Assembly (NCBI GenBank): GCA_027624955.1
Contig: JAQBTG010000002.1
Span: 24,694 to 88,693, forward strand
Direction: 5' to 3'
Length of the DNA: 64,000 bases
Origin: Pseudomonadota bacterium
GTDB lineage: Bacteria; Pseudomonadota; Alphaproteobacteria; UBA828
Notes under the pieces: generated by a model
The model's database searches: none
Told to the model about the DNA's origin: nothing
What the model saw: only the letters and a program-made list of their open reading frames with translations
Shown: one piece after another, positions 52,779-60,486 of the stretch
How the letters are laid out: every line of letters begins with the position of its first letter
Position numbering within the stretch: position 1 is the first letter of the stretch
Made by a program: the position numbers and the translations under genes

Positions 52779-53621
52779 ATGCCCGAAACATCGTCCTATA
52801 CGCCGCCAAAAGTTTGGAAAGACGTTAATGAAAACGGTGGCACATGGGCCAGCATCAATCGCCCGACCGCCGGTGCAACGCATGAGCAGGAGCTGCCGGT
52901 CGGCAAGCATCCGTTGCAGCTCTATTCGCTGGCGACGCCGAACGGCGTCAAAGTCACGATCCTGCTGGAGGAACTGCTGGCGCTCGGACATAAGGGGGCT
53001 GAATATGATGCCTTCCTGATCGAGATCGGCGATAGCCAGCAGTTCGGCAGCGGCTTCGTCGCGCTCAACCCGAACTCTAAGATTCCGGCCTTGCTCGATC
53101 AGAGCACATCGCCGGGAACGCGGGTGTTTGAATCAGGCGCGATCCTCCTCTACCTGGCGGAAAAGTTCGGAGAGTTTGTTCCGCAGGAGCTATCGGCACG
53201 GGCCGAATGTTATTCCTGGCTGTTTTGGCAAATGGGAAGCGCGCCCTATCTCGGCGGCGGATTCGGCCATTTCTACGCCTATGCGCCGGAAAAATTCGAA
53301 TACCCGATCGACCGCTATGCGATGGAAGCGAAACGCCAGCTTGATGTCTTGGATCAAAATTTGTCGGAGCGGCGCTACCTGTGCGGCGATGACTACAACA
53401 TCGCTGACATCGCCACCTATGCCTGGTATGGCAATCTGGTGCTGAATAATTCTTACGATGCGGCGGAATTCCTCGACGTGGCGTCGTATAAACATGTCGT
53501 CAGATGGGCGACGGAAATAGAACAGCGCCCGGCGGTCAAGCGCGGCCGGCGGGTCAATAAAACCTCGGGACCGGAAGACGAACGCCTCCCCGAACGCCAC
53601 GACGCAAGCGACCTCGATTGA
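52779..53621 (+). CDS. YghU/YfcG-type (Nu-class) glutathione S-transferase / glutathione-dependent disulfide-bond oxidoreductase.
   Basis: A 280-aa ORF. Its long N-terminal extension, with LQLYSLATPNGVKVTILLEEL, is typical of YghU. Confidence 0.75.
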   Translation: MPETSSYTPPKVWKDVNENGGTWASINRPTAGATHEQELPVGKHPLQLYSLATPNGVKVTILLEELLALGHKGAEYDAFLIEIGDSQQFGSGFVALNPNSKIPALLDQSTSPGTRVFESGAILLYLAEKFGEFVPQELSARAECYSWLFWQMGSAPYLGGGFGHFYAYAPEKFEYPIDRYAMEAKRQLDVLDQNLSERRYLCGDDYNIADIATYAWYGNLVLNNSYDAAEFLDVASYKHVVRWATEIEQRPAVKRGRRVNKTSGPEDERLPERHDASDLD

Positions 53622-53797
53622 TCGGCGCGGCAAGCGGAACGCGCCGGAGTTGGTGAGGATCGGGCAACAAGGCTTAACGAGCCTGTGATATGGCCGGCTT
53701 TGCGCCGGGGATATCTGGCCTCACAATCCACCCGGCGGAAAAAAATTCGTTACCGTTGATCTCTCTTCCTTGACCTTCCAGGTGCTGGAAGCATTAT

Positions 53798-54274
53798 ATG
53801 GATGGAATGACAAGCGACGCGAAGAACATTGTTCCGCCGCCGCAGCGGCAGCCGGTCAATTTTTTCAGATTTTCCGGACGCGTTGCCATGGCGTTGGCCC
53901 TGGCATTTACAATAGTTTTTGGCCCCTCCCAAATTAGCGCGGCCACGCCGGATCTGAATAATGCGGCGGGCCAGAAGCAACCTCATCACGACGAGCAGGC
54001 GAACGCCGGTCATCATTCAATTGGCCCGGCGGCAAGCGGGCATCACACAGCGGCGATTAAGGTCTATTGCAACACGGCGACGCCTGGCCATGGCGACCAT
54101 GCGCAGCATGGCGACGGTATGTGCGAAGGCTACCGCGTTATGTCTTCTGCCCTGACATCCGCCGAACGCGAATTTGCGCGGTATTACATTCGCCTCAGTG
54201 CGAAAACGGCGCCTGATAGCGCCCCGGCCGGCCACTCACCCGAGCGCCTCAAAGAACCTCCCCGAACCGTCTAA
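53798..54274 (+). CDS. His-rich hypothetical exported protein. The start is uncertain; an internal Met at about 53888 begins a hydrophobic signal/TM segment.
   Basis: The segment MALALAFTIVFGPSQISAATP is followed by a run of His residues (PHHDEQANAGHHSIGPAASGHHTAA...HGDHAQHGDGMCEGY). It lies immediately upstream of a multicopper oxidase gene. Confidence 0.4.
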   Translation: MDGMTSDAKNIVPPPQRQPVNFFRFSGRVAMALALAFTIVFGPSQISAATPDLNNAAGQKQPHHDEQANAGHHSIGPAASGHHTAAIKVYCNTATPGHGDHAQHGDGMCEGYRVMSSALTSAEREFARYYIRLSAKTAPDSAPAGHSPERLKEPPRTV

Positions 54275-54382
54275 GGCGGGTATCCCCGCTTCATTTTGAA
54301 TGAAGGGCTTCCGTAGCGAAGCTTGAAATGGCCTGCCGTGGTTCTCCCATCCGCGGCGGCTGGGACGGATCATGTGTGAGGA

Positions 54383-55708
54383 GTGATCATGAGCGAGAAA
54401 AGAGAATTGCCACAATCGGCGGCACAGACCGCCGAAGAAACCACCGAAGAAAGCGCCAAAAAATCTAGGCCGACCACATCGTCTTCTAGTACCGACACGC
54501 CGCCTTCGGGACCGACGCGGCGCGCCGTGCTGCGCTCGGCGGCGTTGGCGGCCACCGGCGGCGCGCTGTTGGGCGCGGCGGGCAAAGCAGGGGCCAGCGA
54601 ATATCAGGCAGCCCAGGGCTCCATGATGTTTATGAAAGGGCACAACATGATTGGTGCGCGCACCAATCCGCCGGGCGCGCCGGGCGACCATGAAGTGCCC
54701 TACCGCAGTTTCGATATCAGCTTTGATCTGATGGAGCATGAATTGGTGCCGGGCGTGAGCCTGCCGGTATTCGCTTTCAATAAGCAGGTGCCGGGGCCGC
54801 TCTTCCGCGTGCAAGAGAATGATTGGGTCAAGATCAGCGCCACCAACAATACGGAAGAGATGCACACCATCCATTGGCATGGTCTCGACGTGATTTACAC
54901 CATGGACGGCGTACCGATGGTGACGCAGGACCCGATCCACCCGGGCGAGACGTTCGTTTATCGCTTTCAGGCGCGCCCGGCAGGGACGCGGTTCTATCAC
55001 TGCCACTGGAGCACGCCGCTGCATATGATGTCGGCCCTGCACGGTGCCTTCATCATCGACCAGGCAGATGATCCGGTGCGCCAAGCCTTCCCCTATACGC
55101 GCGACTACACGCTGATGCTTGAAGCGTTCGACGTGAATTGGACACGCAAGCACATCAATGAAGTTTTGGCCGGCATGAAGCGGGTCAACAAGCTCATGGC
55201 GATGGGCAAGCTGGACCCGATCACGCACGGCTTCTTTCGCGATTACGATGAATTTAAGGCCGCCGTCGCGGACGGTTGGACACCGCCCTATGTGCGCGGC
55301 GCGGCGGAGCGCAGCACGCCGGAGCCCGATTTCTTCGCGATCAACGGCAAATGTTATCCGGCCACCGAAAAACTCAAAATCAAGCAAGGCGAATATATCC
55401 GCATCCGCCTGATCAATGGCGGCTTCCTGTCACATCATATGCATTTGCACGGTCATAATTTTTGGCAGGTGGCGGAGGACGGCAACCCGCTGCCCCAGCC
55501 AATTCGCATGAACACCGTATCGCTGTTTCCCGGAAAGACGGCAGACATCATCGTTTACGGCGACAATCCTGGGTTTTGGACTTTCCACGACCACGATGTC
55601 CGGCGGGTGATGAATAACGGCATCTATCCGGGCGGCATGCTCACGATGCTTGAATATGAAGATATGGGCGACGTGCCCTACGTCCCCTCCATCGCCATCA
55701 ACGAATAA
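54383..55708 (+). CDS. Tat-exported multicopper oxidase, two-domain type (laccase-like).
   Basis: The Tat motif TRRAVLRSAALAATGG and the Cu-binding motifs HWHG, HCHWSTPLHMM, HHMHLHGH and HDHD are present. The length of 441 aa fits two cupredoxin domains rather than a 3-domain CopA or PcoA. Confidence 0.75.
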   Translation: MIMSEKRELPQSAAQTAEETTEESAKKSRPTTSSSSTDTPPSGPTRRAVLRSAALAATGGALLGAAGKAGASEYQAAQGSMMFMKGHNMIGARTNPPGAPGDHEVPYRSFDISFDLMEHELVPGVSLPVFAFNKQVPGPLFRVQENDWVKISATNNTEEMHTIHWHGLDVIYTMDGVPMVTQDPIHPGETFVYRFQARPAGTRFYHCHWSTPLHMMSALHGAFIIDQADDPVRQAFPYTRDYTLMLEAFDVNWTRKHINEVLAGMKRVNKLMAMGKLDPITHGFFRDYDEFKAAVADGWTPPYVRGAAERSTPEPDFFAINGKCYPATEKLKIKQGEYIRIRLINGGFLSHHMHLHGHNFWQVAEDGNPLPQPIRMNTVSLFPGKTADIIVYGDNPGFWTFHDHDVRRVMNNGIYPGGMLTMLEYEDMGDVPYVPSIAINE

Positions 55709-55726
55709 CCGGAAAGGAACTGACCG

Positions 55727-56971
55727 ATGAAAAACAAACTTATCTCTCTCGCCGCCGGTTGTTCAGCCGCCCTCTTTGCCGCCGGCGCTATGGCTCTGGA
55801 GATCGATCCAAACGTGCCGCCGGAGATCAGTCTCGGCGGGCGTCTTGTTGCCACGGCCAACTTCTCGGATACGGAACAAGCGGTTGGCAGCAATAAGACC
55901 GATGCGGCGCTCGATATCGCCGATTCAAGCATTCTCATCAGCGCCAGCAAATATTTGTTCAACGCCGGTGATTACGGTTACGCGGTGTTTGGCCTCACAA
56001 TTCCGGAGGACGATTCTGACCTGCCGGATGAGATATTCGTGCACCAGGCGGCGGTCGGCATGGGCAGTCAAGATTACGATCTAGTCCTTGGCCGCACGCG
56101 ACTGCCAAATACCTTGGTTTCGTTTCCGACCGTGCGCGACGACGATCTTCTCGCTTTCACCCATGTCGGCAACGCCGGCGCTAACGTAGAGGCGGAGGAA
56201 GATACAATTTTTGGCGGTGTCCTCGGCGGCACGCGGTATCTATGGAAGCAATTCCAGGCGCAAGCCTTCGCCACGGCGCGGGCCGAAACCGACCTTACCA
56301 ATCTCACAAATAGTGACCGAACTGCGCGTTCTAATTTAAACGGCGCGGCGTTTGGCTTTGCCTATGAAATTCCCGAAGAGATCAAGTTTGACCGCGGCAT
56401 CCGCTACGCTGCTGTCGGGCTCGATTGGCAGCGCGTTGATGAGTTGGCGGGCGGCGATGATGACGACGTCGCGGCCGTTCTGGCCGGCCTAAGTTACAAC
56501 CTCAGCGACGACCCTGAGGCAAGCTGGGCATTGGATTTTCAGGGCATCTACAATTTCGGCGCCGGGGTCGCCAATCTCAATTCCGACGTGGCGCGGGCGC
56601 GCGGCGAGCAATATGCCCTGGTCAGCGCGCTCCGCTACACCGCCCGCCCGCAATTGCAAACCGATTGGCAAGCGGCCATCACGGTGGCGTGGAAGGATTA
56701 TGCGGATTTTGACGACGCCTCTTCTTTTGCAATAGTGCCGAGTATCGCCTGGCGATTGGGCAGTGGTGTCGAGGTGCTCGGCCAATATCGATTTCTCAAC
56801 AATGGCGCCACCTTGGGCGCTGCGGAGAATCAGGACCGTAGCCACACACTCTTTCTCGGCCTGTCCTTCGCTTTGGATACGACCTTCAACGAATCTGTCG
56901 GTGCGCGCGGCTCGATTCTCAGCCTAGAGCACAACATGCTCAATCCCGGCCCCGCCGGGCTCGGCCATTGA
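55727..56971 (+). CDS. Outer-membrane beta-barrel (porin-like) protein with a signal peptide.
   Basis: The signal peptide is MKNKLISLAAGCSAALFAAGAMA. Alternating amphipathic beta-strand patterns with Tyr/Phe/Trp-rich strands follow. No family was recognised. Confidence 0.5.
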   Translation: MKNKLISLAAGCSAALFAAGAMALEIDPNVPPEISLGGRLVATANFSDTEQAVGSNKTDAALDIADSSILISASKYLFNAGDYGYAVFGLTIPEDDSDLPDEIFVHQAAVGMGSQDYDLVLGRTRLPNTLVSFPTVRDDDLLAFTHVGNAGANVEAEEDTIFGGVLGGTRYLWKQFQAQAFATARAETDLTNLTNSDRTARSNLNGAAFGFAYEIPEEIKFDRGIRYAAVGLDWQRVDELAGGDDDDVAAVLAGLSYNLSDDPEASWALDFQGIYNFGAGVANLNSDVARARGEQYALVSALRYTARPQLQTDWQAAITVAWKDYADFDDASSFAIVPSIAWRLGSGVEVLGQYRFLNNGATLGAAENQDRSHTLFLGLSFALDTTFNESVGARGSILSLEHNMLNPGPAGLGH

Positions 56972-56991
56972 GAGACGGAGGAAGGAAGAGA

Positions 56992-57420
56992 ATGATGCAA
57001 ATCAAAAGTAAGACGCTTCCACTCATCGCGGCGGTGGCCGCTTTCACCACTTCCGTCGCTGTGGTCACTCCCGCTATGGCGCAAGAGTCCGGCAGCCATG
57101 AGGGGCACGATATGTCTGCCATGATGGCTGTGGGCGAAGCCGGTGCCTGGTCCTATACAGGGCGGGAAAATCCACAAATGCAGATGCACGGGCGCTGGGA
57201 AACGGTGCCGCTAAAGGGGCGAGCTAGCGCCGCGGTTTCCGCCGCCGCCATGACGCACCAGGAGCGCTGCGCCGCGCTGATGGCGGCGGAGGATTTGATG
57301 CAGGATCACGCGACCCTCGCGGCTTGTACGGGGATAAACCCATCCACCCCGATGGAACAACAACCGCCGCCGAGCCAACATGATGACATGGACCATGGCG
57401 ACGGCGGACAAAGTAACTAA
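56992..57420 (+). CDS. Met/His-rich periplasmic hypothetical protein and possible copper ligand.
   Basis: The signal peptide MMQIKSKTLPLIAAVAAFTTSVAVVTPAMA is followed by SGSHEGHDMSAMMAVGE...MQMHG...HDDMDHGDGG. The gene sits between the porin-like and cupredoxin genes. Confidence 0.45.
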   Translation: MMQIKSKTLPLIAAVAAFTTSVAVVTPAMAQESGSHEGHDMSAMMAVGEAGAWSYTGRENPQMQMHGRWETVPLKGRASAAVSAAAMTHQERCAALMAAEDLMQDHATLAACTGINPSTPMEQQPPPSQHDDMDHGDGGQSN

Positions 57421-57444
57421 CTCTAACTCCAACAGAGAAGGCAG

Positions 57445-58278
57445 ATGATGAAACACAGAAAACTGGCCGCCACCACGGTGCTGGCTCTAATGATCGGCGC
57501 GGGAATTTCCACAGCAGCCATGGCCGATACGGCGGTCATCAAAATGAAATTCGATGAAGACAGCGGCGATCTTTATTTTGAGCCGGCCAAGGTCACTATC
57601 AATCCCGGCGATACCGTGGTCTGGCTGCAAGATGATGTCGACAACGAGCACAACGTGGCTGCCTATCCCAACCTCATTCCGGAAGGCGTGCAGCCCTTTG
57701 AAAGTCAGATGATGACGCGGGTAGGCGAAAGCTGGAGCATGACCTTCGACAAGGTAGGCAGCTATTTCTATCACTGCCATCCGCATGAGGCGGCGGGCAT
57801 GAAAGGGCTGATCGTGGTCGGTCGCGAATCTCTGCCGGAGGAATTCCGAAAAGCCAGAGCGGGTGATATGTCGCATGACCATGGCGACGGCGATATGGAC
57901 GACATGAAGCATGGCGATAAGGACGGCATGAAGCATGGCGACAAGGACGGCATGAAGCATGGTGACATGGACGACATGAAGCCTGGCGATAAGGACGGCA
58001 TGAAGCATGGTGACATGGACGGCATGAAGCATGACGACATGGACGGCATGAAGCATGACGACATGGACGGCATGAAGCATGGTGACATGGACGGCATGAA
58101 GCATGACGATAAGGACGGCATGAAGCATGACGACATGGACGGCATGAAGCATGACGACATGGACGGCATGAAGCACGGCGACGATGATGATCATCACCAA
58201 GATGGTGACAAAAAGGAGAACAAGATTATGGAGGATGGGCATGGCCACGATAATGACCATGGCGATCACCACGATTAG
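57445..58278 (+). CDS. Exported type-1 copper (cupredoxin: plastocyanin/pseudoazurin/amicyanin-like) protein with a C-terminal tail of 12 tandem 8-aa DGMKH(G/D)D(M/K) repeats.
   Basis: A signal peptide is present. The cupredoxin ligand pattern His...Cys-x2-His-x4-Met appears in FYHCHPHEAAGMKGLIVV. Residues from about 148 to 250 are a Met/His/Asp repeat array. Confidence 0.75.
   Translation: MMKHRKLAATTVLALMIGAGISTAAMADTAVIKMKFDEDSGDLYFEPAKVTINPGDTVVWLQDDVDNEHNVAAYPNLIPEGVQPFESQMMTRVGESWSMTFDKVGSYFYHCHPHEAAGMKGLIVVGRESLPEEFRKARAGDMSHDHGDGDMDDMKHGDKDGMKHGDKDGMKHGDMDDMKPGDKDGMKHGDMDGMKHDDMDGMKHDDMDGMKHGDMDGMKHDDKDGMKHDDMDGMKHDDMDGMKHGDDDDHHQDGDKKENKIMEDGHGHDNDHGDHHD
57886..58192 (+). repeat. 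24-bp tandem repeat array (about 12 units of gacggcatgaagcatgRcgaYaWg) encoding the DGMKHxDx repeats.
   Basis: Direct inspection shows highly regular 24-nt periodicity. The spurious minus-strand ORFs 57487-58296 and 57771-58169 are its reverse-frame translations (MLHAV / MPSMSSCF repeats). Confidence 0.9.
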
Positions 58279-58420
58279 GGCGCGCCGGACGGTCAAGGGC
58301 GCCTTCGGCTAGGCGCTCCGCATTAGAGAAGATAACTGTGAACGGCAATTTTTTTGACAGCGAGGTGGCGGAGCTAATCGCTCTATGCCCCGCACCGCCA
58401 GCGGCCTTGATTGATCGGCT

Positions 58421-59614
58421 TCAGCGCGGCCCCAGCAAACAATAGGTGTCCATCTTGCCTTTGCCTTTGATCTCGATCGTTCCGTTTGCGCTGAATAGGT
58501 ATTTGTCGCTTAGCGCGCGGTAGACGGTTTCCGTGACCTGGATGGTATCCGCCGCACCGCTTGATTCCATACGGCTCGCGACGTTCACCGTGTCGCCCCA
58601 CATATCGTAGGCGAATTTGTTTTTTCCGATGACGCCAGCGACGACCGGGCCGCTATGGATACCGATGCGGAGTGAAAAGGCCTCGCCGCTGTCCTTCTTT
58701 ATCTCGCTGATGGCCGATTGCATATCGAGCGCCAGATTGGCGATGGCCTCGGCGTGGTCCGGTCTTGGCTCCGGCACGCCGCCCGCTACCATATAGGCGT
58801 CTCCGATGGTTTTGATTTTCTCCAGACCGTGACGGATGGTGAGTTCATCAAAGCGAAAAAAGATCTCGTTGAGCTTGGTCACCAGTTGATCCGGGCGCAC
58901 GGTGCTCGAATACCCGGTGAAATCGACAATATCGGCGAAGAGCACGCTCGCATCGTCATATTCCTCGGCGATGACGCCGGGCCGCGACTTCAGAACCTGC
59001 GCAGTTTTTCGCGGAAGAATGTTCAACAGCAGGCCGTCGGCTTTGGCCCGTTCGCTGACGGCGCTGATCACGAAATAGCTGGCGAAAACAAAGACGATGA
59101 GCGACCAAATGCTCAAATTCATGAAGAAGAACAACACCCTCGTATCATCGGATACGGGATGGCCGTGCCTGATAAAAAAATCTTCGAAGGCAAACGAGAT
59201 AGCGATATTTACGAGATAAAGCAGCAGCCAGATGATTGACTGCTTCATTGAAAAAAACATCAACGCGATGATCGGGCCGCAGAACGCCCATAGAAGGACC
59301 AAACCGGAATCGAAAACGCTGCCGATGCTCCACTGGATCAGCGCGGTGATATAGATGATGCAGAGGATCTGGACATAAACCAACGGGCGATGCTTACGCG
59401 TGAAATGGCAGATAACGATTGTTGATCCGACAATCACGACAAAGGCGAAAGGCAGGAGCGAAACCAACCCGAAGCCAAAGATGATGTAGTACATTGCCGT
59501 CCAGGCAGTGCCCGCTAGGCAGCACGACGCGGCGACCAGAAAGATGGTGATTTTTTCCAGTCTGACGTCGTCGGTGTCATCGGGTGCGTAGGCGAAAAAG
59601 GTCTTCAGATTCAT
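58421..59614 (-). CDS. Membrane-anchored class III adenylate/guanylate cyclase. The start is probably the Met giving MNLKTFFAYAP...; the track ORF extends to 59854.
   Basis: A ~6-TM N-terminal domain is followed by a CYCc catalytic domain (VLFADIVDFTGYSS, KTIGDAYMVAGG, the metal-binding Asp residues, and the GDTVNVASRME transition-state region). GC is markedly lower, about 48-55%. Confidence 0.8.
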   Translation of the reverse strand: MNLKTFFAYAPDDTDDVRLEKITIFLVAASCCLAGTAWTAMYYIIFGFGLVSLLPFAFVVIVGSTIVICHFTRKHRPLVYVQILCIIYITALIQWSIGSVFDSGLVLLWAFCGPIIALMFFSMKQSIIWLLLYLVNIAISFAFEDFFIRHGHPVSDDTRVLFFFMNLSIWSLIVFVFASYFVISAVSERAKADGLLLNILPRKTAQVLKSRPGVIAEEYDDASVLFADIVDFTGYSSTVRPDQLVTKLNEIFFRFDELTIRHGLEKIKTIGDAYMVAGGVPEPRPDHAEAIANLALDMQSAISEIKKDSGEAFSLRIGIHSGPVVAGVIGKNKFAYDMWGDTVNVASRMESSGAADTIQVTETVYRALSDKYLFSANGTIEIKGKGKMDTYCLLGPR

Positions 59615-59769
59615 TCTGTTCGGCGCTCTGATGTGAAAGCCGGGCTGCGAATTTGAACGGCTGGCAGGGGCGGCGAACCGTAGCATGAACTGGCGGGCGG
59701 CAGAGAGCTGCTGGAGGAACGGTGACAAACAGCGCTTCGAGAGCGCCCAGTGCGGGGAGGCTGAGCAAT

Positions 59770-60486
59770 ATGGATGATTTTTATGTGGTTGCGACCGAGC
59801 CCGGCCATGTTCGGCACGACCTACCAGTTTGGGCCGGCAAGCGTGCTGGGGCAATCAAGTTCGATGCCGCATCCGGCCGCAAAGTCGAGCGGGCAGATAT
59901 CGCGGACGTGCCAGGCGCTTTTCAGCTCCTCGATGTCCTGAGCGTTGATGAGTGTGATCGCTTGGTCGAACTCAGTGATGCTCTCGGCTATCACGATGAC
60001 GCGCCGGTGTCGCTGCCGCGCAGCATTCTCCACACCAACAATTTCAATTGGGTGGTGGATGAAAGCGTCGACGGCCCAATCTGGGAACGTTGCAAAGATT
60101 TTGTCGCAGCATCCACCTACACCAGCCGGATAGCCTGCGGCCTCAACGGGCGTTTTAGATTTTACCGGTACCACCCGGGTGATTACTTTGCGCCACATAC
60201 GGACGGGGTGTGGCCTGGGAGCCGCGTCGTTGACGGGCGATTGGTCCATGACGCCTATGGCGATCGCATCAGCGAAATGACGTTCTTGATTTTCCTAACG
60301 GACGGATATGAGGGCGGGCGGACTCAGTTCCAGTCGCAACAGAACGCTGTTACCAGCGTCGCCACCCCGAAGGGCGCGGTCCTGTGCTTTCCGCATGGTA
60401 CGCATCCGCAGCACTGTGTTCATGCGGGCGAAGAAGTAACATCTGGGAAAAAGTACATCATACGCACCGACATATTGTTTGGTTGA
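59770..60486 (+). CDS. 2-oxoglutarate/Fe(II)-dependent oxygenase (prolyl-4-hydroxylase-like).
   Basis: About 238 aa. The facial triad is present: YHPGDYFAPHTDG (HxD) and a distal His in GTHPQHCVHAG. The start was chosen at MDDFYVV; the track ORF begins at 59722. Confidence 0.65.
   Translation: MDDFYVVATEPGHVRHDLPVWAGKRAGAIKFDAASGRKVERADIADVPGAFQLLDVLSVDECDRLVELSDALGYHDDAPVSLPRSILHTNNFNWVVDESVDGPIWERCKDFVAASTYTSRIACGLNGRFRFYRYHPGDYFAPHTDGVWPGSRVVDGRLVHDAYGDRISEMTFLIFLTDGYEGGRTQFQSQQNAVTSVATPKGAVLCFPHGTHPQHCVHAGEEVTSGKKYIIRTDILFG

What the first reader, a model, noticed from the sequence alone, without database searches (positions are those of the whole stretch)
53798..58278. Periplasmic copper-handling gene cluster of unusual composition
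Five consecutive plus-strand genes are:
- a His-rich exported protein;
- a Tat-signal two-domain multicopper oxidase (441 aa, HWHG/HCH/HxHxH motifs), not the usual 3-domain CopA or PcoA;
- a 414-aa outer-membrane beta-barrel;
- a Met/His-rich periplasmic protein;
- a cupredoxin with a Met/His repeat tail.

There is no CopB/CusCBA, P-type ATPase or CopRS/CueR gene in the cluster. The set resembles a Cop/Pco-like resistance or copper-delivery system assembled from non-canonical parts.
Basis: partly seen in the sequence, partly recalled or inferred. Interest (0 to 1): 0.65.

Follow-up and report, generated by a model that had tools for sequence, protein, structure and literature searches.

The report
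Copper-switched oxidase–porin detoxification operon
This is a five-gene operon, probably switched on by copper, that pairs a small two-domain copper oxidase with an outer-membrane pore; it looks like a previously undescribed variant of bacterial copper-detoxification systems, found almost only in uncultured marine and saline bacteria.

Summary
The five plus-strand genes are real and form a conserved cassette. In all ~30 related loci examined the oxidase sits immediately upstream of the barrel.

Parts:
- A type-C two-domain multicopper oxidase (MCO) with a Tat signal.
- A barrel with a 16-stranded general-porin fold, not PcoB/CopB.
- A small Met/His protein (p4) from a tiny unannotated family. 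Its members are often fused to cytochrome c, CusF or a cupredoxin.
- A pseudoazurin-like cupredoxin with a (GDMDGMKH)x12 tail. Gamma- and betaproteobacterial versions carry cytochrome c or a DUF2231 membrane protein instead.

- A CueR-type operator lies at 53770-53796. It matches the E. coli copA site at 22 of 27 bases and recurs in 13 alphaproteobacterial loci.
- The "His-rich exported protein" looks like a CutF/CopL-type leader. It has a signal peptide, a C-terminal PPR motif before the stop, and Pro-Pro codons predicted to pair with the oxidase's Shine-Dalgarno.

Related loci sit beside a P1B-ATPase, CopG, an RND pump or CsoR.

Best reading: a copper-induced system for periplasmic Cu(I) oxidation and release. 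It is analogous to copLAB, pcoAB and cutFOG but built from different parts. All of this is in silico. The roles of the porin, p4 and the electron carrier are inferred.

The parts
53770..53800 (+). CueR-type (MerR-family, Cu(I)-responsive) promoter and operator. The -35 is TTGACC at 53770-53775. The dyad CTTCCAG-GTG-CTGGAAG lies at 53775-53791 within a 19-nt spacer. The -10 is TATATG at 53795-53800.
   Evidence: It matches the E. coli copA CueR site TTGACCTTCCCCTTGCTGGAAGGTTTA (PMC9004249) at 22 of 27 bases. It is unique in the window; 0.12 matches are expected even when 2 mismatches are allowed. The same box lies upstream of the cassette in 13 alphaproteobacterial loci.
53807..54274 (+). p1, a CutF/CopL-like leader protein of 155 aa. 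It has a Sec signal (RFSGRVAMALALAFTIVFGPSQISA), a His-rich mature part, two Cys residues, and the C-terminal motif SPERLKEPPRTV followed by the stop. The ORF list gives its start as 53798.
   Evidence: An ORF with the same architecture lies directly upstream of the oxidase in about 20 loci. The L025 copy passes the Pfam DUF2946 cut-off. The L014 and L025 copies weakly hit NCBIfam CopL_fam. CutF's features are described in PMC8456105 and PMC9973294. The ATG lies 6 nt after the -10 hexamer in six loci. The window copy itself has no Pfam hit.
54254..54391 (+). Leader-to-oxidase regulatory RNA. The Pro-Pro-Arg codons at 54257-54264 are predicted to pair with the oxidase Shine-Dalgarno region at 54377-54385 (SD GAGGAG, 54378-54383). 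A GC hairpin at 54274-54291 begins at the stop codon and is followed by a U-rich stretch.
   Evidence: RNAalifold predicts the anti-SD:SD helix in six close relatives (A10). It predicts the equivalent helix in a divergent group with 3 compensatory pairs (A8). The promoter/terminator scan flags the hairpin as terminator-like. The hairpin is conserved in other loci. No Rfam family matches.
54389..55708 (+). Tat-exported two-domain multicopper oxidase, type C, with the T1 Cys in the N-terminal domain. The ORF list gives its start as GTG 54383.
   Evidence: Pfam finds Cu-oxidase_3 and Cu-oxidase_2 only. The best solved relatives are mgLAC 2zwn and the N. europaea oxidase 3g5w, E about 1e-57. Four HxH motifs and a single HCH are present. 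A conserved MMxMxxHxM motif lies at residues 81-89, and there is a conserved 64-aa interdomain insert. NCBIfam scores for copper_res_A and Cu_nitrite_red fall far below their cut-offs.
55727..56971 (+). Outer-membrane porin-fold beta-barrel of 414 aa. A conserved acidic loop FPTVRDDDLLAFTHV (residues 133-147) is probably the constriction loop. A conserved 27-aa C-terminal extension, NESVGARGSILSLEH..., follows the terminal Phe387.
56992..57420 (+). p4, a small exported Met/His-rich protein of an unannotated family. Its conserved core is GxWSY..RW..VP..G...RCAAL...DHAT..AC, with two Cys residues and His/Met-rich N- and C-terminal tails. The ORF list gives its start as TTG 56968.
   Evidence: There is no hit in Pfam, NCBIfam or the PDB. 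The family has only 61 clusters among 1.84 billion representative proteins. Of 25 longer members, 10 are fused to cytochrome c, 3 to CusF and 2 to a cupredoxin (examples L018 and L012).
57445..58278 (+). p5, a plastocyanin/pseudoazurin-like cupredoxin with T1 ligands H69, C111, H114 and M119. It carries a C-terminal (GDMDGMKH)x12 His/Met/Asp tail encoded by a 24-nt tandem repeat at 57889-58182.
   Evidence: PF00127 matches with E 1.6e-19. The domain is 34-37 % identical to rhizobial and Paracoccus pseudoazurins. Plastocyanin and pseudoazurin are the best PDB hits. The tandem repeat was found. Tail length varies between homologues. Cytochrome c or DUF2231 takes this position in gamma/beta loci.

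Best explanation
This is a copper-inducible operon that removes Cu(I) from the periplasm.

Regulation (inferred from sequence):
- When cytoplasmic Cu(I) rises, CueR activates the MerR-type promoter at 53770-53800. The transcript probably starts at or next to the p1 AUG at 53807.
- p1 is a CutF/CopL-type leader. While it is exported co-translationally, periplasmic copper binds the nascent His/Cys-rich chain.
- This prolongs ribosome pausing on the C-terminal Pro-Pro-Arg codons.
- Those codons are the anti-Shine-Dalgarno arm of a helix that sequesters the oxidase ribosome-binding site. They also lie just before a hairpin that starts at the stop codon.
- A paused ribosome therefore opens expression of the downstream genes.

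Enzymology and transport (inferred by analogy with CueO, PcoA and CutO):
- The Tat-exported two-domain oxidase, presumably a homotrimer like its solved relatives, oxidises Cu(I) to Cu(II) using O2.
- The Met/His tails of p4 and of the cupredoxin capture copper. p4 hands it over or docks the carrier.
- The cupredoxin, or cytochrome c in other lineages, acts as a one-electron relay or sink. This could keep Cu(I) oxidation going when O2 is scarce.
- The porin has an acidic conserved loop and gives Cu(II) a path across the outer membrane.

What is shown and what is inferred: gene identities, cassette conservation, the operator sequence, the leader architecture and the predicted RNA pairing are shown. 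The substrate, the direction of copper flow, the direction of electron flow and any protein complexes are inferred.
For: CueR operator:
- It is 22/27 identical to the E. coli copA site.
- It is conserved upstream of the cassette in 13 alphaproteobacterial loci, with fixed -10 to ATG geometry.

Leader:
- p1 has a signal peptide, a His/Cys region and PP[RK] placed 1-3 residues before the stop. It lies directly upstream of a Tat-MCO in about 20 loci.
- One copy passes the Pfam DUF2946 cut-off.
- These features match those shown experimentally to be needed for Cu-dependent CutO production (PMC8456105 and PMC9973294).
- The anti-SD:SD helix is predicted in two divergent groups, with 3 compensatory pairs in one of them.

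Copper-binding composition:
- The tails of p4, p5 and p1 are strongly enriched in His and Met.
- The oxidase has a conserved N-terminal MMxMxxHxM motif.
- p4 is fused to CusF in 3 family members.

Copper-resistance neighbourhood in other loci:
- P1B-ATPase with an HMA domain, DUF411/CopG and LTXXQ/Metal_resist in the Aquisalimonas isolate.
- A second MCO with DUF411.
- An RND pump.
- OmpR-type two-component systems.
- CsoR with PCuAC.
- DUF411.

Architecture and unit:
- MCO plus outer-membrane barrel plus leader mirrors copLAB, pcoAB and cutFOG (PMC13115771, PMC12509749, PMC9973294).
- The cassette boundaries are conserved while the flanks differ.
Against: - There is no expression, genetic or biochemical data for any member, and nearly all members are MAGs.
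- No cueR, copA or efflux gene lies in the 64-kb window.
- The beta/gamma loci lack the CueR box.
- A dedicated electron carrier, and the frequent p4-cytochrome c fusions, are not needed for a simple O2-dependent cuprous oxidase. They fit a respiratory or electron-transfer role equally well.
- The window's p1 lacks the CxxxC motif and has no Pfam hit. Its similarity to DUF2946-positive copies is weak: 10 bits and hhalign probability 11 %.
- The anti-SD helix is invariant in the window's own group, so it carries no covariation there.
- The single-sequence fold of the intergenic region is not better than shuffles, z = -1.17.
- CCUCC pairs with GGAGG for any Pro-Pro pair next to any strong SD.
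- The p4 structure could not be modelled.
Confidence: 0.65

Rival explanations
1. The cassette is a porin-oxidase electron conduit for metal oxidation or extracellular electron uptake. The trimeric oxidase sits under the trimeric porin. It oxidises Fe(II), Mn(II) or an external donor that enters through the pore, or it receives electrons from outside. The cupredoxin or cytochrome c, docked by p4, connects it to the respiratory chain. Copper regulation would only reflect the enzyme's need for copper as a cofactor.
For: - The fourth gene switches between a cupredoxin and a class-I cytochrome c, as true redox partners do.
- Ten of 25 long p4 proteins are fused to cytochrome c.
- Hosts include sulfur- and iron-oxidiser lineages: Acidiferrobacteraceae, Sulfurifustaceae, Ectothiorhodospiraceae and Thiohalomonadales.
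- Porin-MCO pairs have been proposed as electron-transfer modules (PMC5566968).
- A cytochrome c-MCO operon with an upstream MerR gene is induced during electron uptake in Thioclava (PMC13488337).
- Some JGI records name homologues 'manganese oxidase'.
Against: - The operator is specifically CueR-like, and CueR activates under copper excess, not copper need.
- The leader is of the Cu-sensing CutF type.
- p4, p5 and p1 carry long His/Met copper-binding tails, and p4 is fused to CusF in some members.
- Neighbouring genes are copper efflux or chaperone genes, not respiratory genes.
- No multihaem cytochromes are present.
- The 'manganese oxidase' label is an automatic name, and even the type enzyme MoxA is doubted.
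Confidence: 0.15
2. The cassette is a copper acquisition and delivery system. The porin imports copper, the His/Met proteins buffer it, and the oxidase and cupredoxin set its redox state for loading into periplasmic cuproenzymes.
For: - PcoB, the barrel paired with PcoA, has been argued to permit copper import (PMC9210255).
- A PCuAC-like chaperone gene lies next to the cassette in L001.
- CutF-like and DUF2946 leaders also precede copper-uptake genes (PMC9973294).
Against: - CueR-type promoters switch on when Cu(I) is in excess, the opposite of what an uptake system needs (established knowledge of CueR; operator).
- Neighbours in other loci are efflux and resistance genes: P1B-ATPase, RND, CopG and Metal_resist.
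- No cuproenzyme client such as NosZ, cytochrome oxidase or NirK lies in or beside any cassette.
Confidence: 0.1
3. The enzyme is a general laccase-like or NcgA-like oxidase that acts on organic substrates or nitrogen oxides. The neighbouring genes are only loosely associated with it.
For: The closest solved relatives are a metagenomic 'two-domain laccase' and the Nitrosomonas europaea blue copper oxidase. In Nitrosomonas a related oxidase is encoded with cytochromes c and NirK (my own knowledge; not checked here).
Against: - The five-gene cassette is strictly conserved as a unit while its flanks change.
- No nirK or aromatic-degradation gene is linked to it.
- The copper-specific regulation and the His/Met partners argue against it.
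- The family differs from the solved enzymes by a conserved Met/His N-terminal motif and a 64-aa insert.
Confidence: 0.05

Closest known systems
copLAB (Xanthomonas) / pcoAB (E. coli plasmid, Caulobacter) copper-resistance modules
   Same: A small upstream leader ORF needed for copper induction is followed by a Tat-exported periplasmic multicopper oxidase and then an outer-membrane beta-barrel in one operon. His/Met-rich copper-binding segments are part of the system (PMC13115771, PMC12509749, PMC9210255).
   Different: - The oxidase has two domains, not three. Its TIGR01480 score is 147 against a cut-off of 479.
- The barrel has no His/Met N-terminal disordered region. His/Met segments sit on separate proteins, p4 and p5.
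- An electron carrier gene is present.
- A CueR operator replaces CopRS/PcoRS.
cutFOG of Rhodobacter capsulatus
   Same: A leader protein with a Sec signal, a Cys/His copper-binding region and a C-terminal Pro-rich motif lies directly upstream of a Tat-MCO. An RNA structure shields the oxidase Shine-Dalgarno, and a periplasmic copper-handling protein is encoded downstream (PMC9973294, PMC8456105).
   Different: - CutO is a three-domain MCO.
- There is no porin, no p4 and no cupredoxin.
- CutG is a DUF411 protein.
- The window's p1 lacks CxxxC and has no detectable DUF2946 match.
- Here the anti-SD arm is formed by the Pro-Pro codons themselves.
Type-C two-domain multicopper oxidases (mgLAC, PDB 2zwn; Nitrosomonas europaea blue copper oxidase, PDB 3g5w)
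   Same: These are the best sequence matches, E about 1e-57 over both domains. They share the same copper-ligand pattern, with the HCH of the T1 site in domain 1.
   Different: - The interdomain segment is about 64 aa, against about 16 aa in 2zwn.
- A conserved N-terminal MMxMxxHxM motif is present.
- The position aligned with the axial Met of 2zwn is Leu here.
- The family is obligately linked to a porin gene.
CopI (Rubrivivax gelatinosus, Vibrio, Pseudomonas) and pseudoazurin/plastocyanin
   Same: p5 is a single-domain cupredoxin with a His-Cys-His-Met site plus extra His/Met-rich copper-binding segments. CopI confers copper tolerance at low O2 (PMC13308877). The p5 domain is 34-37 % identical to pseudoazurins.
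   Different: [quoted passage not shown]
- p5 falls below the NCBIfam equivalog cut-offs for pseudoazurin and plastocyanin.
- No CopI sequence was available for a direct comparison.
Cytochrome c-multicopper oxidase operons (Thioclava electrotropha pmcA operon; Nitrosomonas ncgABC)
   Same: A small MCO is encoded with monohaem c-type cytochromes, and a MerR-family regulator is associated (PMC13488337). The gamma/beta versions of this cassette carry cytochrome c in place of the cupredoxin.
   Different: Those operons have no porin, no p4 and no CutF-like leader. Sequence relatedness of their oxidases to this one was not tested.

Membership tests
Two-domain multicopper oxidase, type C | Only two cupredoxin domains | tested here: met
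   Pfam finds Cu-oxidase_3 at 127-228 and Cu-oxidase_2 at 314-404 in 441 aa, with no third domain. The best PDB hits are 318-339-aa two-domain enzymes.
Two-domain multicopper oxidase, type C | Eight His residues in four HxH motifs for the trinuclear centre | tested here: met
   HWH 164-166, HCH 206-208, HMHLHGH 352-358 and HDH 402-404 are present. They are conserved in 117 homologues.
Two-domain multicopper oxidase, type C | A single T1 site whose Cys lies in the N-terminal domain | tested here: met
   The only HCH is at 206-208, in domain 1. The only other Cys, at 324, is not in a copper motif. The type A/B/C nomenclature is from my own knowledge.
Two-domain multicopper oxidase, type C | Homotrimer with the trinuclear centres at subunit interfaces | not testable with these tools
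   No multimer prediction was available.
CopA/PcoA/CueO copper-resistance multicopper oxidase | Three-domain architecture and a family-level sequence match (TIGR01480 / CueO models) | tested here: not met
   copper_res_A scores 147.5 bits against a cut-off of 478.95. CueO scores 59.5 against 525. Only two domains are present.
CopA/PcoA/CueO copper-resistance multicopper oxidase | A Met-rich segment near the substrate site and cuprous oxidase activity | tested here: inconclusive
   A short conserved MMxMxxHxM motif lies at residues 81-89. Its position relative to the T1 site is unknown, and activity cannot be tested here.
Copper nitrite reductase NirK | T1 plus T2 sites only, and a match to TIGR02376 | tested here: not met
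   The score is 84.3 bits against a cut-off of 296.3. A full trinuclear ligand set is present.
PcoB/CopB outer-membrane copper protein | A Pfam CopB (PF05275) match and a 12-stranded barrel | tested here: not met
PcoB/CopB outer-membrane copper protein | A His/Met-rich disordered N-terminal domain | tested here: not met
   The mature protein starts LEIDPNVPPE and goes directly into strand 1 at residue 33. The whole protein is only H 1.2 % and M 1.0 %.
General (16-stranded, trimeric) Gram-negative porin | A 16-stranded barrel with an internal constriction loop | tested here: met
General (16-stranded, trimeric) Gram-negative porin | Sequence membership of a curated porin family (e.g. Pfam Porin_4) | tested here: inconclusive
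   The window protein has no hit. Twelve of 56 homologues hit Porin_4, best E 2.7e-8.
General (16-stranded, trimeric) Gram-negative porin | Trimeric assembly | not testable with these tools
   No multimer prediction was available.
CutF / CopL / DUF2946 copper-sensing leader proteins | A small (<170 aa) protein with a Sec signal peptide, encoded immediately upstream of a copper gene | tested here: met
   The protein is 155 aa from ATG 53807. It has an n-region RFSGR, an h-region VAMALALAFTIVF and a c-region SQISA. The Tat-MCO begins 114 nt downstream.
CutF / CopL / DUF2946 copper-sensing leader proteins | A C-terminal Pro-rich motif with nearby positive charge, close to the stop codon | tested here: met
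   The C-terminus is ...SPERLKEPPRTV followed by the stop. PP[RK] lies 1-3 residues before the stop in all roughly 20 copies. CutF ends PEPEGPPPRL.
CutF / CopL / DUF2946 copper-sensing leader proteins | A central CxxxC (or CxxC) copper-binding motif | tested here: not met
   The window copy has two Cys residues 20 residues apart (YC...MCEG) in a His-rich stretch. Relatives in L004, L011, L019 and L021-L026 do have CxxxC/CxxC motifs. The CutF papers accept Cys-containing variants.
CutF / CopL / DUF2946 copper-sensing leader proteins | An RNA structure that shields the downstream Shine-Dalgarno | tested here: met
   This is a prediction only. The CCUCC Pro codons pair with GGAG of the SD in A10 (6 sequences). 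The equivalent helix in A8 has 3 compensatory pairs.
CutF / CopL / DUF2946 copper-sensing leader proteins | A detectable sequence match to Pfam DUF2946 or NCBIfam CopL_fam | tested here: not met
   The window copy has no hit. The L025 copy scores 24.8 bits against a cut-off of 23.7. hhalign between the window group and L025 gives probability 11 %.
CueR regulon | A MerR-type promoter with a 19-nt spacer containing the CCTTCC-N7-GGAAGG-like dyad | tested here: met
   Window 53770-53796 is 22/27 identical to the E. coli copA site. The site is conserved in 13 loci.
CueR regulon | CueR binding and Cu(I)-dependent activation | not testable with these tools
   No cueR gene lies in the window. EMSA and reporter assays would be needed.
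CopI | A cupredoxin His-Cys-His-Met centre | tested here: met
   H69, C111, H114 and M119 lie within PF00127 and are invariant in three homologues.
CopI | A conserved internal His/Met-rich segment and an N-terminal His-rich site | tested here: not met
   No His-rich N-terminus is present. Internally there is only QMM. The His/Met region is a C-terminal repeat. The CopI features come from PMC13308877. No direct sequence comparison was possible.

The most novel reading that the evidence does not exclude
The two-domain oxidase is an obligate trimer in its solved relatives, and the barrel has the fold of trimeric porins. The two could form a three-fold symmetric porin-oxidase complex at the outer membrane. 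The porin's conserved, disordered periplasmic C-terminal tail (residues 388-414) would hold them together. p4 would dock a dedicated one-electron carrier, either a cupredoxin or a cytochrome c. This would be a copper-protein counterpart of the porin-cytochrome conduits. It would oxidise metal ions (Cu(I), possibly Fe(II) or Mn(II)) at or through the pore. It would pass the electrons either to O2 or, through the carrier, to the respiratory chain, which would allow O2-independent copper detoxification or even energy gain.
Probability: 0.12. Interest if true: 0.85.

Novelty: new variant of a known kind. Interest (0 to 1): 0.6.

Why it matters
Periplasmic copper detoxification is understood mainly from CueO, Cus and Pco/Cop.

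- This cassette suggests the same job (sense copper, oxidise Cu(I), cross the outer membrane) has been assembled a second time from different parts. Those parts are a two-domain oxidase, a general-porin-fold channel, a new small protein family and a dedicated electron carrier.
- It gives the widespread but functionally obscure type-C two-domain oxidases a concrete, testable physiological role.
- It extends the recently discovered CutF-type translational copper sensor to a new operon class. Here the Pro-Pro stalling codons are predicted to be the anti-Shine-Dalgarno themselves.
- The carrier gene raises the question of how Cu(I) is oxidised when oxygen is scarce, as in oxygen-minimum zones and sediments where these bacteria live.
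- One cultured carrier, Aquisalimonas sp. APHAB1-3, makes experiments possible.

Tried and rejected
- Plasmid searches: the cassette DNA and the barrel protein have no match in PLSDB, so no annotated relative was found there.
- Sequence searches of the barrel against the PDB found nothing, with either a single sequence or a profile. Only fold comparison was informative.
- AF2 modelling of p4 from 16 close homologues failed (pLDDT 49.7), so no fold search was done. A profile search of the PDB gave only chance hits.
- The AFDB Foldseek library was not available.
- The 'manganese oxidase' label on some homologues was followed to MoxA of Pedomicrobium. MoxA is CueO-sized and its own assignment is doubted, so this was dropped as evidence.
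- Direct homology of the window's p1 to DUF2946 could not be shown: Pfam gave none, hhalign gave probability 11 %, and an HMM of gamma copies scored 10 bits. Iterated jackhmmer on the 16-sequence set gave large scores, but I do not trust them because of His-rich and signal-peptide composition bias.
- The single-sequence RNA fold of the p1-oxidase spacer is not better than shuffles (z -1.17). Only the comparative folds were used.
- Rfam has no match in 53600-58500.
- Literature searches for a two-domain MCO plus porin operon found no description.

Full report
**1. The observation**

The five plus-strand ORFs are present as described. They are packed like an operon. The gaps are 18 nt (oxidase to barrel), about 20 nt (barrel to gene 4) and 24 nt (gene 4 to gene 5). 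A longer 114-nt spacer follows gene 1. The flanks are unrelated: a glutathione S-transferase upstream and a convergent adenylate cyclase downstream. A simple motif scan found no P-type ATPase or MerR-type ORF anywhere in the 64 kb. Base composition does not set the cluster apart.

**2. The oxidase (54389-55708)**

Pfam finds only Cu-oxidase_3 (residues 127-228) and Cu-oxidase_2 (314-404). The best solved relatives are the metagenomic two-domain laccase mgLAC (2zwn) and the Nitrosomonas europaea oxidase (3g5w), both with E about 1e-57.

All four HxH motifs of a trinuclear copper centre are present, and the single HCH lies in domain 1. This is the type-C pattern; that nomenclature is from my own knowledge.

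It is not a nitrite reductase and not a CopA/PcoA or CueO family member. NCBIfam scores are 84 against 296, 147 against 479 and 59 against 525.

The twin-arginine motif TRRAVL is invariant in 117 homologues. So are an N-terminal MMxMxxHxM motif at residues 81-89 and the interdomain segment 250-313. That segment is about 48 residues longer than in 2zwn. The GAGGAG Shine-Dalgarno 5 nt before ATG 54389 suggests the true start is there, not at GTG 54383.

**3. The barrel (55727-56971)**

No Pfam, NCBIfam or PDB sequence match exists for the window protein. Twelve of 56 homologues weakly hit Pfam Porin_4, and none hits CopB.

Two features are conserved across the family:
- An acidic loop, FPTxRDDDLLxFTHV (133-147), between strands. 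By analogy with porin loop L3 I infer that it lines the constriction and makes the pore cation-selective.
- A 27-residue tail, NESVGxRxSILxLEH..., after the terminal Phe387. It is predicted to be disordered. An extension beyond the usual C-terminal beta-signal is unusual and suggests a periplasmic docking peptide (inference).

**4. Gene 4, p4 (56992-57420)**

Homologues start at MQIKSK, so the start is probably ATG 56992. p4 has a signal peptide, Met/His-rich N- and C-terminal tails and a conserved core with two Cys residues. No library recognises it, and the structure could not be predicted.

A profile search of 1.84 billion representative proteins finds only 61 clusters. Of 25 longer members, 10 are fused to class-I cytochrome c, 3 to the Cu(I) chaperone domain CusF and 2 to a plastocyanin-like cupredoxin. 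Examples are L018 and L012. These fusions tie p4 functionally both to copper hand-over and to a one-electron carrier.

**5. Gene 5, p5 (57445-58278)**

p5 is a plastocyanin/pseudoazurin-type cupredoxin (PF00127, E 1.6e-19) with ligands H69, C111, H114 and M119. It is 34-37 % identical to rhizobial and Paracoccus pseudoazurins but falls below the equivalog cut-offs.

The tail is (GDMDGMKH)x12, encoded by a 24-nt repeat with 90 % matches. Its length varies from none to long among homologues, so it is evolutionarily labile.

**6. Conservation**

A genome scan with the barrel found 22 loci. Almost all are MAGs of marine or saline Alpha-, Gamma- and Betaproteobacteria; the only isolate is Aquisalimonas sp. 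APHAB1-3. Contig look-ups added about ten more loci.
- In every locus the oxidase is immediately upstream of the barrel.
- p4 follows in most loci.
- The next gene is a cupredoxin in Alphaproteobacteria. In the beta/gamma loci it is a cytochrome c (L002, L014, L015, L027; fused to p4 in L018) or a DUF2231 membrane protein with a His-rich tail.
- L031 shares the window's upstream flank but not the downstream one. L032 shares neither. L030 is followed by transposases.

The five-gene unit is therefore the conserved, transferable entity.

**7.

(a) A CueR-type operator. Positions 53770-53796 read TTGACCTTCCAGGTGCTGGAAGCATTA. The CueR site of the E. coli copA promoter is TTGACCTTCCCCTTGCTGGAAGGTTTA (PMC9004249), so 22 of 27 bases match, with the dyad in a 19-nt spacer. 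The pattern is unique in the window; 0.12 matches are expected even when two mismatches are allowed. The same box precedes the cassette in 13 alphaproteobacterial loci. It is absent from the beta/gamma loci. It is also absent from L001, which instead has a divergent CsoR-like gene, and from L012, which has a divergent two-component system. In six close relatives the p1 ATG lies exactly 6 nt after the -10 hexamer. This fixes the p1 start at 53807 and suggests a leaderless mRNA (inference).

(b) A CutF/CopL-like leader. p1 has the architecture of CutF/CopL/DUF2946 leaders. It is small and has a Sec signal, a His/Cys-rich mature part, and PP[RK] placed 1-3 residues before the stop. It lies directly upstream of a Tat-exported oxidase. 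About 20 loci have such an ORF. The Aquisalimonas copy passes the Pfam DUF2946 cut-off, and two copies weakly hit NCBIfam CopL_fam. In Rhodobacter capsulatus these same features of CutF, together with a stem-loop that shields the cutO Shine-Dalgarno, are required for copper-dependent CutO synthesis through a stalling-like process during co-translational export (PMC8456105, PMC9973294).

(c) An RNA switch. RNAalifold pairs the Pro-Pro codons (CCUCC, 54257-54261) and following bases with the oxidase Shine-Dalgarno (54378-54385). It does so in six close relatives. It predicts the equivalent helix in a divergent group (L011, L004, L019), where three pairs show compensatory changes. A GC hairpin begins at the stop codon (54274-54291), is followed by U-rich sequence, and is conserved in structure in other loci. 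A ribosome paused on PPR would occupy the 5' arm and free the ribosome-binding site.

Caveats on the regulatory model:
- The window's p1 lacks CxxxC, and its sequence similarity to DUF2946 copies is not significant.
- The helix is invariant in the window's own group, so it carries no covariation there.
- The single-sequence fold is unremarkable.

**8. Context elsewhere**

- The Aquisalimonas locus carries a P1B-ATPase with an HMA domain, DUF411/CopG and an LTXXQ/Metal_resist protein next to the cassette.
- L026 has a second MCO plus DUF411.
- L015 has an RND transporter.
- L027 and L012 have divergent OmpR-type two-component systems.
- L028 and L029 have DUF411.
- L001 has CsoR and PCuAC.

All of these point to copper homeostasis.

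**9. Mechanism**

The best-supported reading is a copper-induced periplasmic Cu(I) oxidation and release system under double control. CueR senses the cytoplasm and the p1 leader senses the periplasm.

It is analogous to copLAB, pcoAB and cutFOG (PMC13115771, PMC12509749). Its parts differ: they are either non-homologous (porin against PcoB; p4) or structurally different (two-domain against three-domain oxidase).

The carrier gene is the least explained element. Its swap between cupredoxin and cytochrome c, and the p4-cytochrome fusions, argue that it transfers electrons rather than merely binding copper. It may let Cu(I) oxidation proceed at low O2, as proposed for CopI (PMC13308877). That would fit the oxygen-minimum-zone and sediment origin of many carriers.

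The main rival is a porin-oxidase electron conduit for metal oxidation or electron uptake (PMC5566968, PMC13488337). It is not excluded, but it explains the CueR box, the CutF-type leader, the CusF fusions and the resistance-gene neighbourhoods less well.

**10. Novelty**

I found no description of this cassette in the searchable literature. It is a new variant of a known kind of system, copper-responsive MCO plus outer-membrane channel. It contains one apparently new small-protein family and one unannotated porin family. All functional statements are computational.

Noticed in passing
window 57889-58182: The cupredoxin tail is encoded by a 24-nt tandem repeat: 12.2 copies with 90 % matches. 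Homologues have tails ranging from none to long, so the array looks recently expanded and length-variable.
   Followed up: partly
window 56888-56971 (porin residues 388-414): The porin has a conserved 27-aa extension, NESVGARGSILSLEH...GH, after the terminal aromatic residue that normally ends an outer-membrane barrel. It is predicted to be disordered. It could be a docking peptide or a metal site.
   Followed up: partly
window 53795-53809; also L006, L007, L030, L031, L032: The p1 ATG lies exactly 6 nt after the -10 hexamer in six loci. This implies a leaderless transcript for the leader ORF.
   Followed up: partly
L018:2398-3222; L012:7227-7862: These are natural fusions of p4: with a C-terminal cytochrome c in L018 and with an N-terminal CusF domain in L012.
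   Followed up: yes
L016, L017, L020, L025, L026 (e.g. L020:6939-7574): In several loci the carrier gene is replaced by a DUF2231 membrane protein that has a His/Asp-rich C-terminal tail. Its role is unknown.
   Followed up: no
L009:3343 and 4008; L028:3721-4182: Some relatives have two CueR-like boxes. The first precedes an extra upstream gene: DUF411/CopG, or a cytochrome c in the P0005 contig. An extra Met-rich 150-aa gene follows the cupredoxin.
   Followed up: partly
L030:4966-9687; L001:12144-17275: In L030 the cassette is followed by three transposase genes. In L001 it is followed by an IS element and a type I-E CRISPR-Cas locus. With the variable flanks, this hints at horizontal mobility.
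   Followed up: no
window 54266-54291: In close relatives the last codons of p1 (CCGCC) can pair with GGCGG just after the stop. Alternatively, GGCGGG can pair with CCCGUU to form the terminator-like hairpin. These mutually exclusive pairings resemble an attenuator.
   Followed up: partly
window 58421-59854 (- strand): The convergent neighbour is a class III adenylate/guanylate cyclase with a multi-pass membrane N-terminal domain. No link to the copper cassette was seen, and it is absent from the related loci.
   Followed up: no
L022:612-633 (- strand): An exact CueR-type box occurs about 4 kb upstream of the cassette in a gammaproteobacterial locus, pointing away from it. It presumably serves another copper gene.
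   Followed up: no
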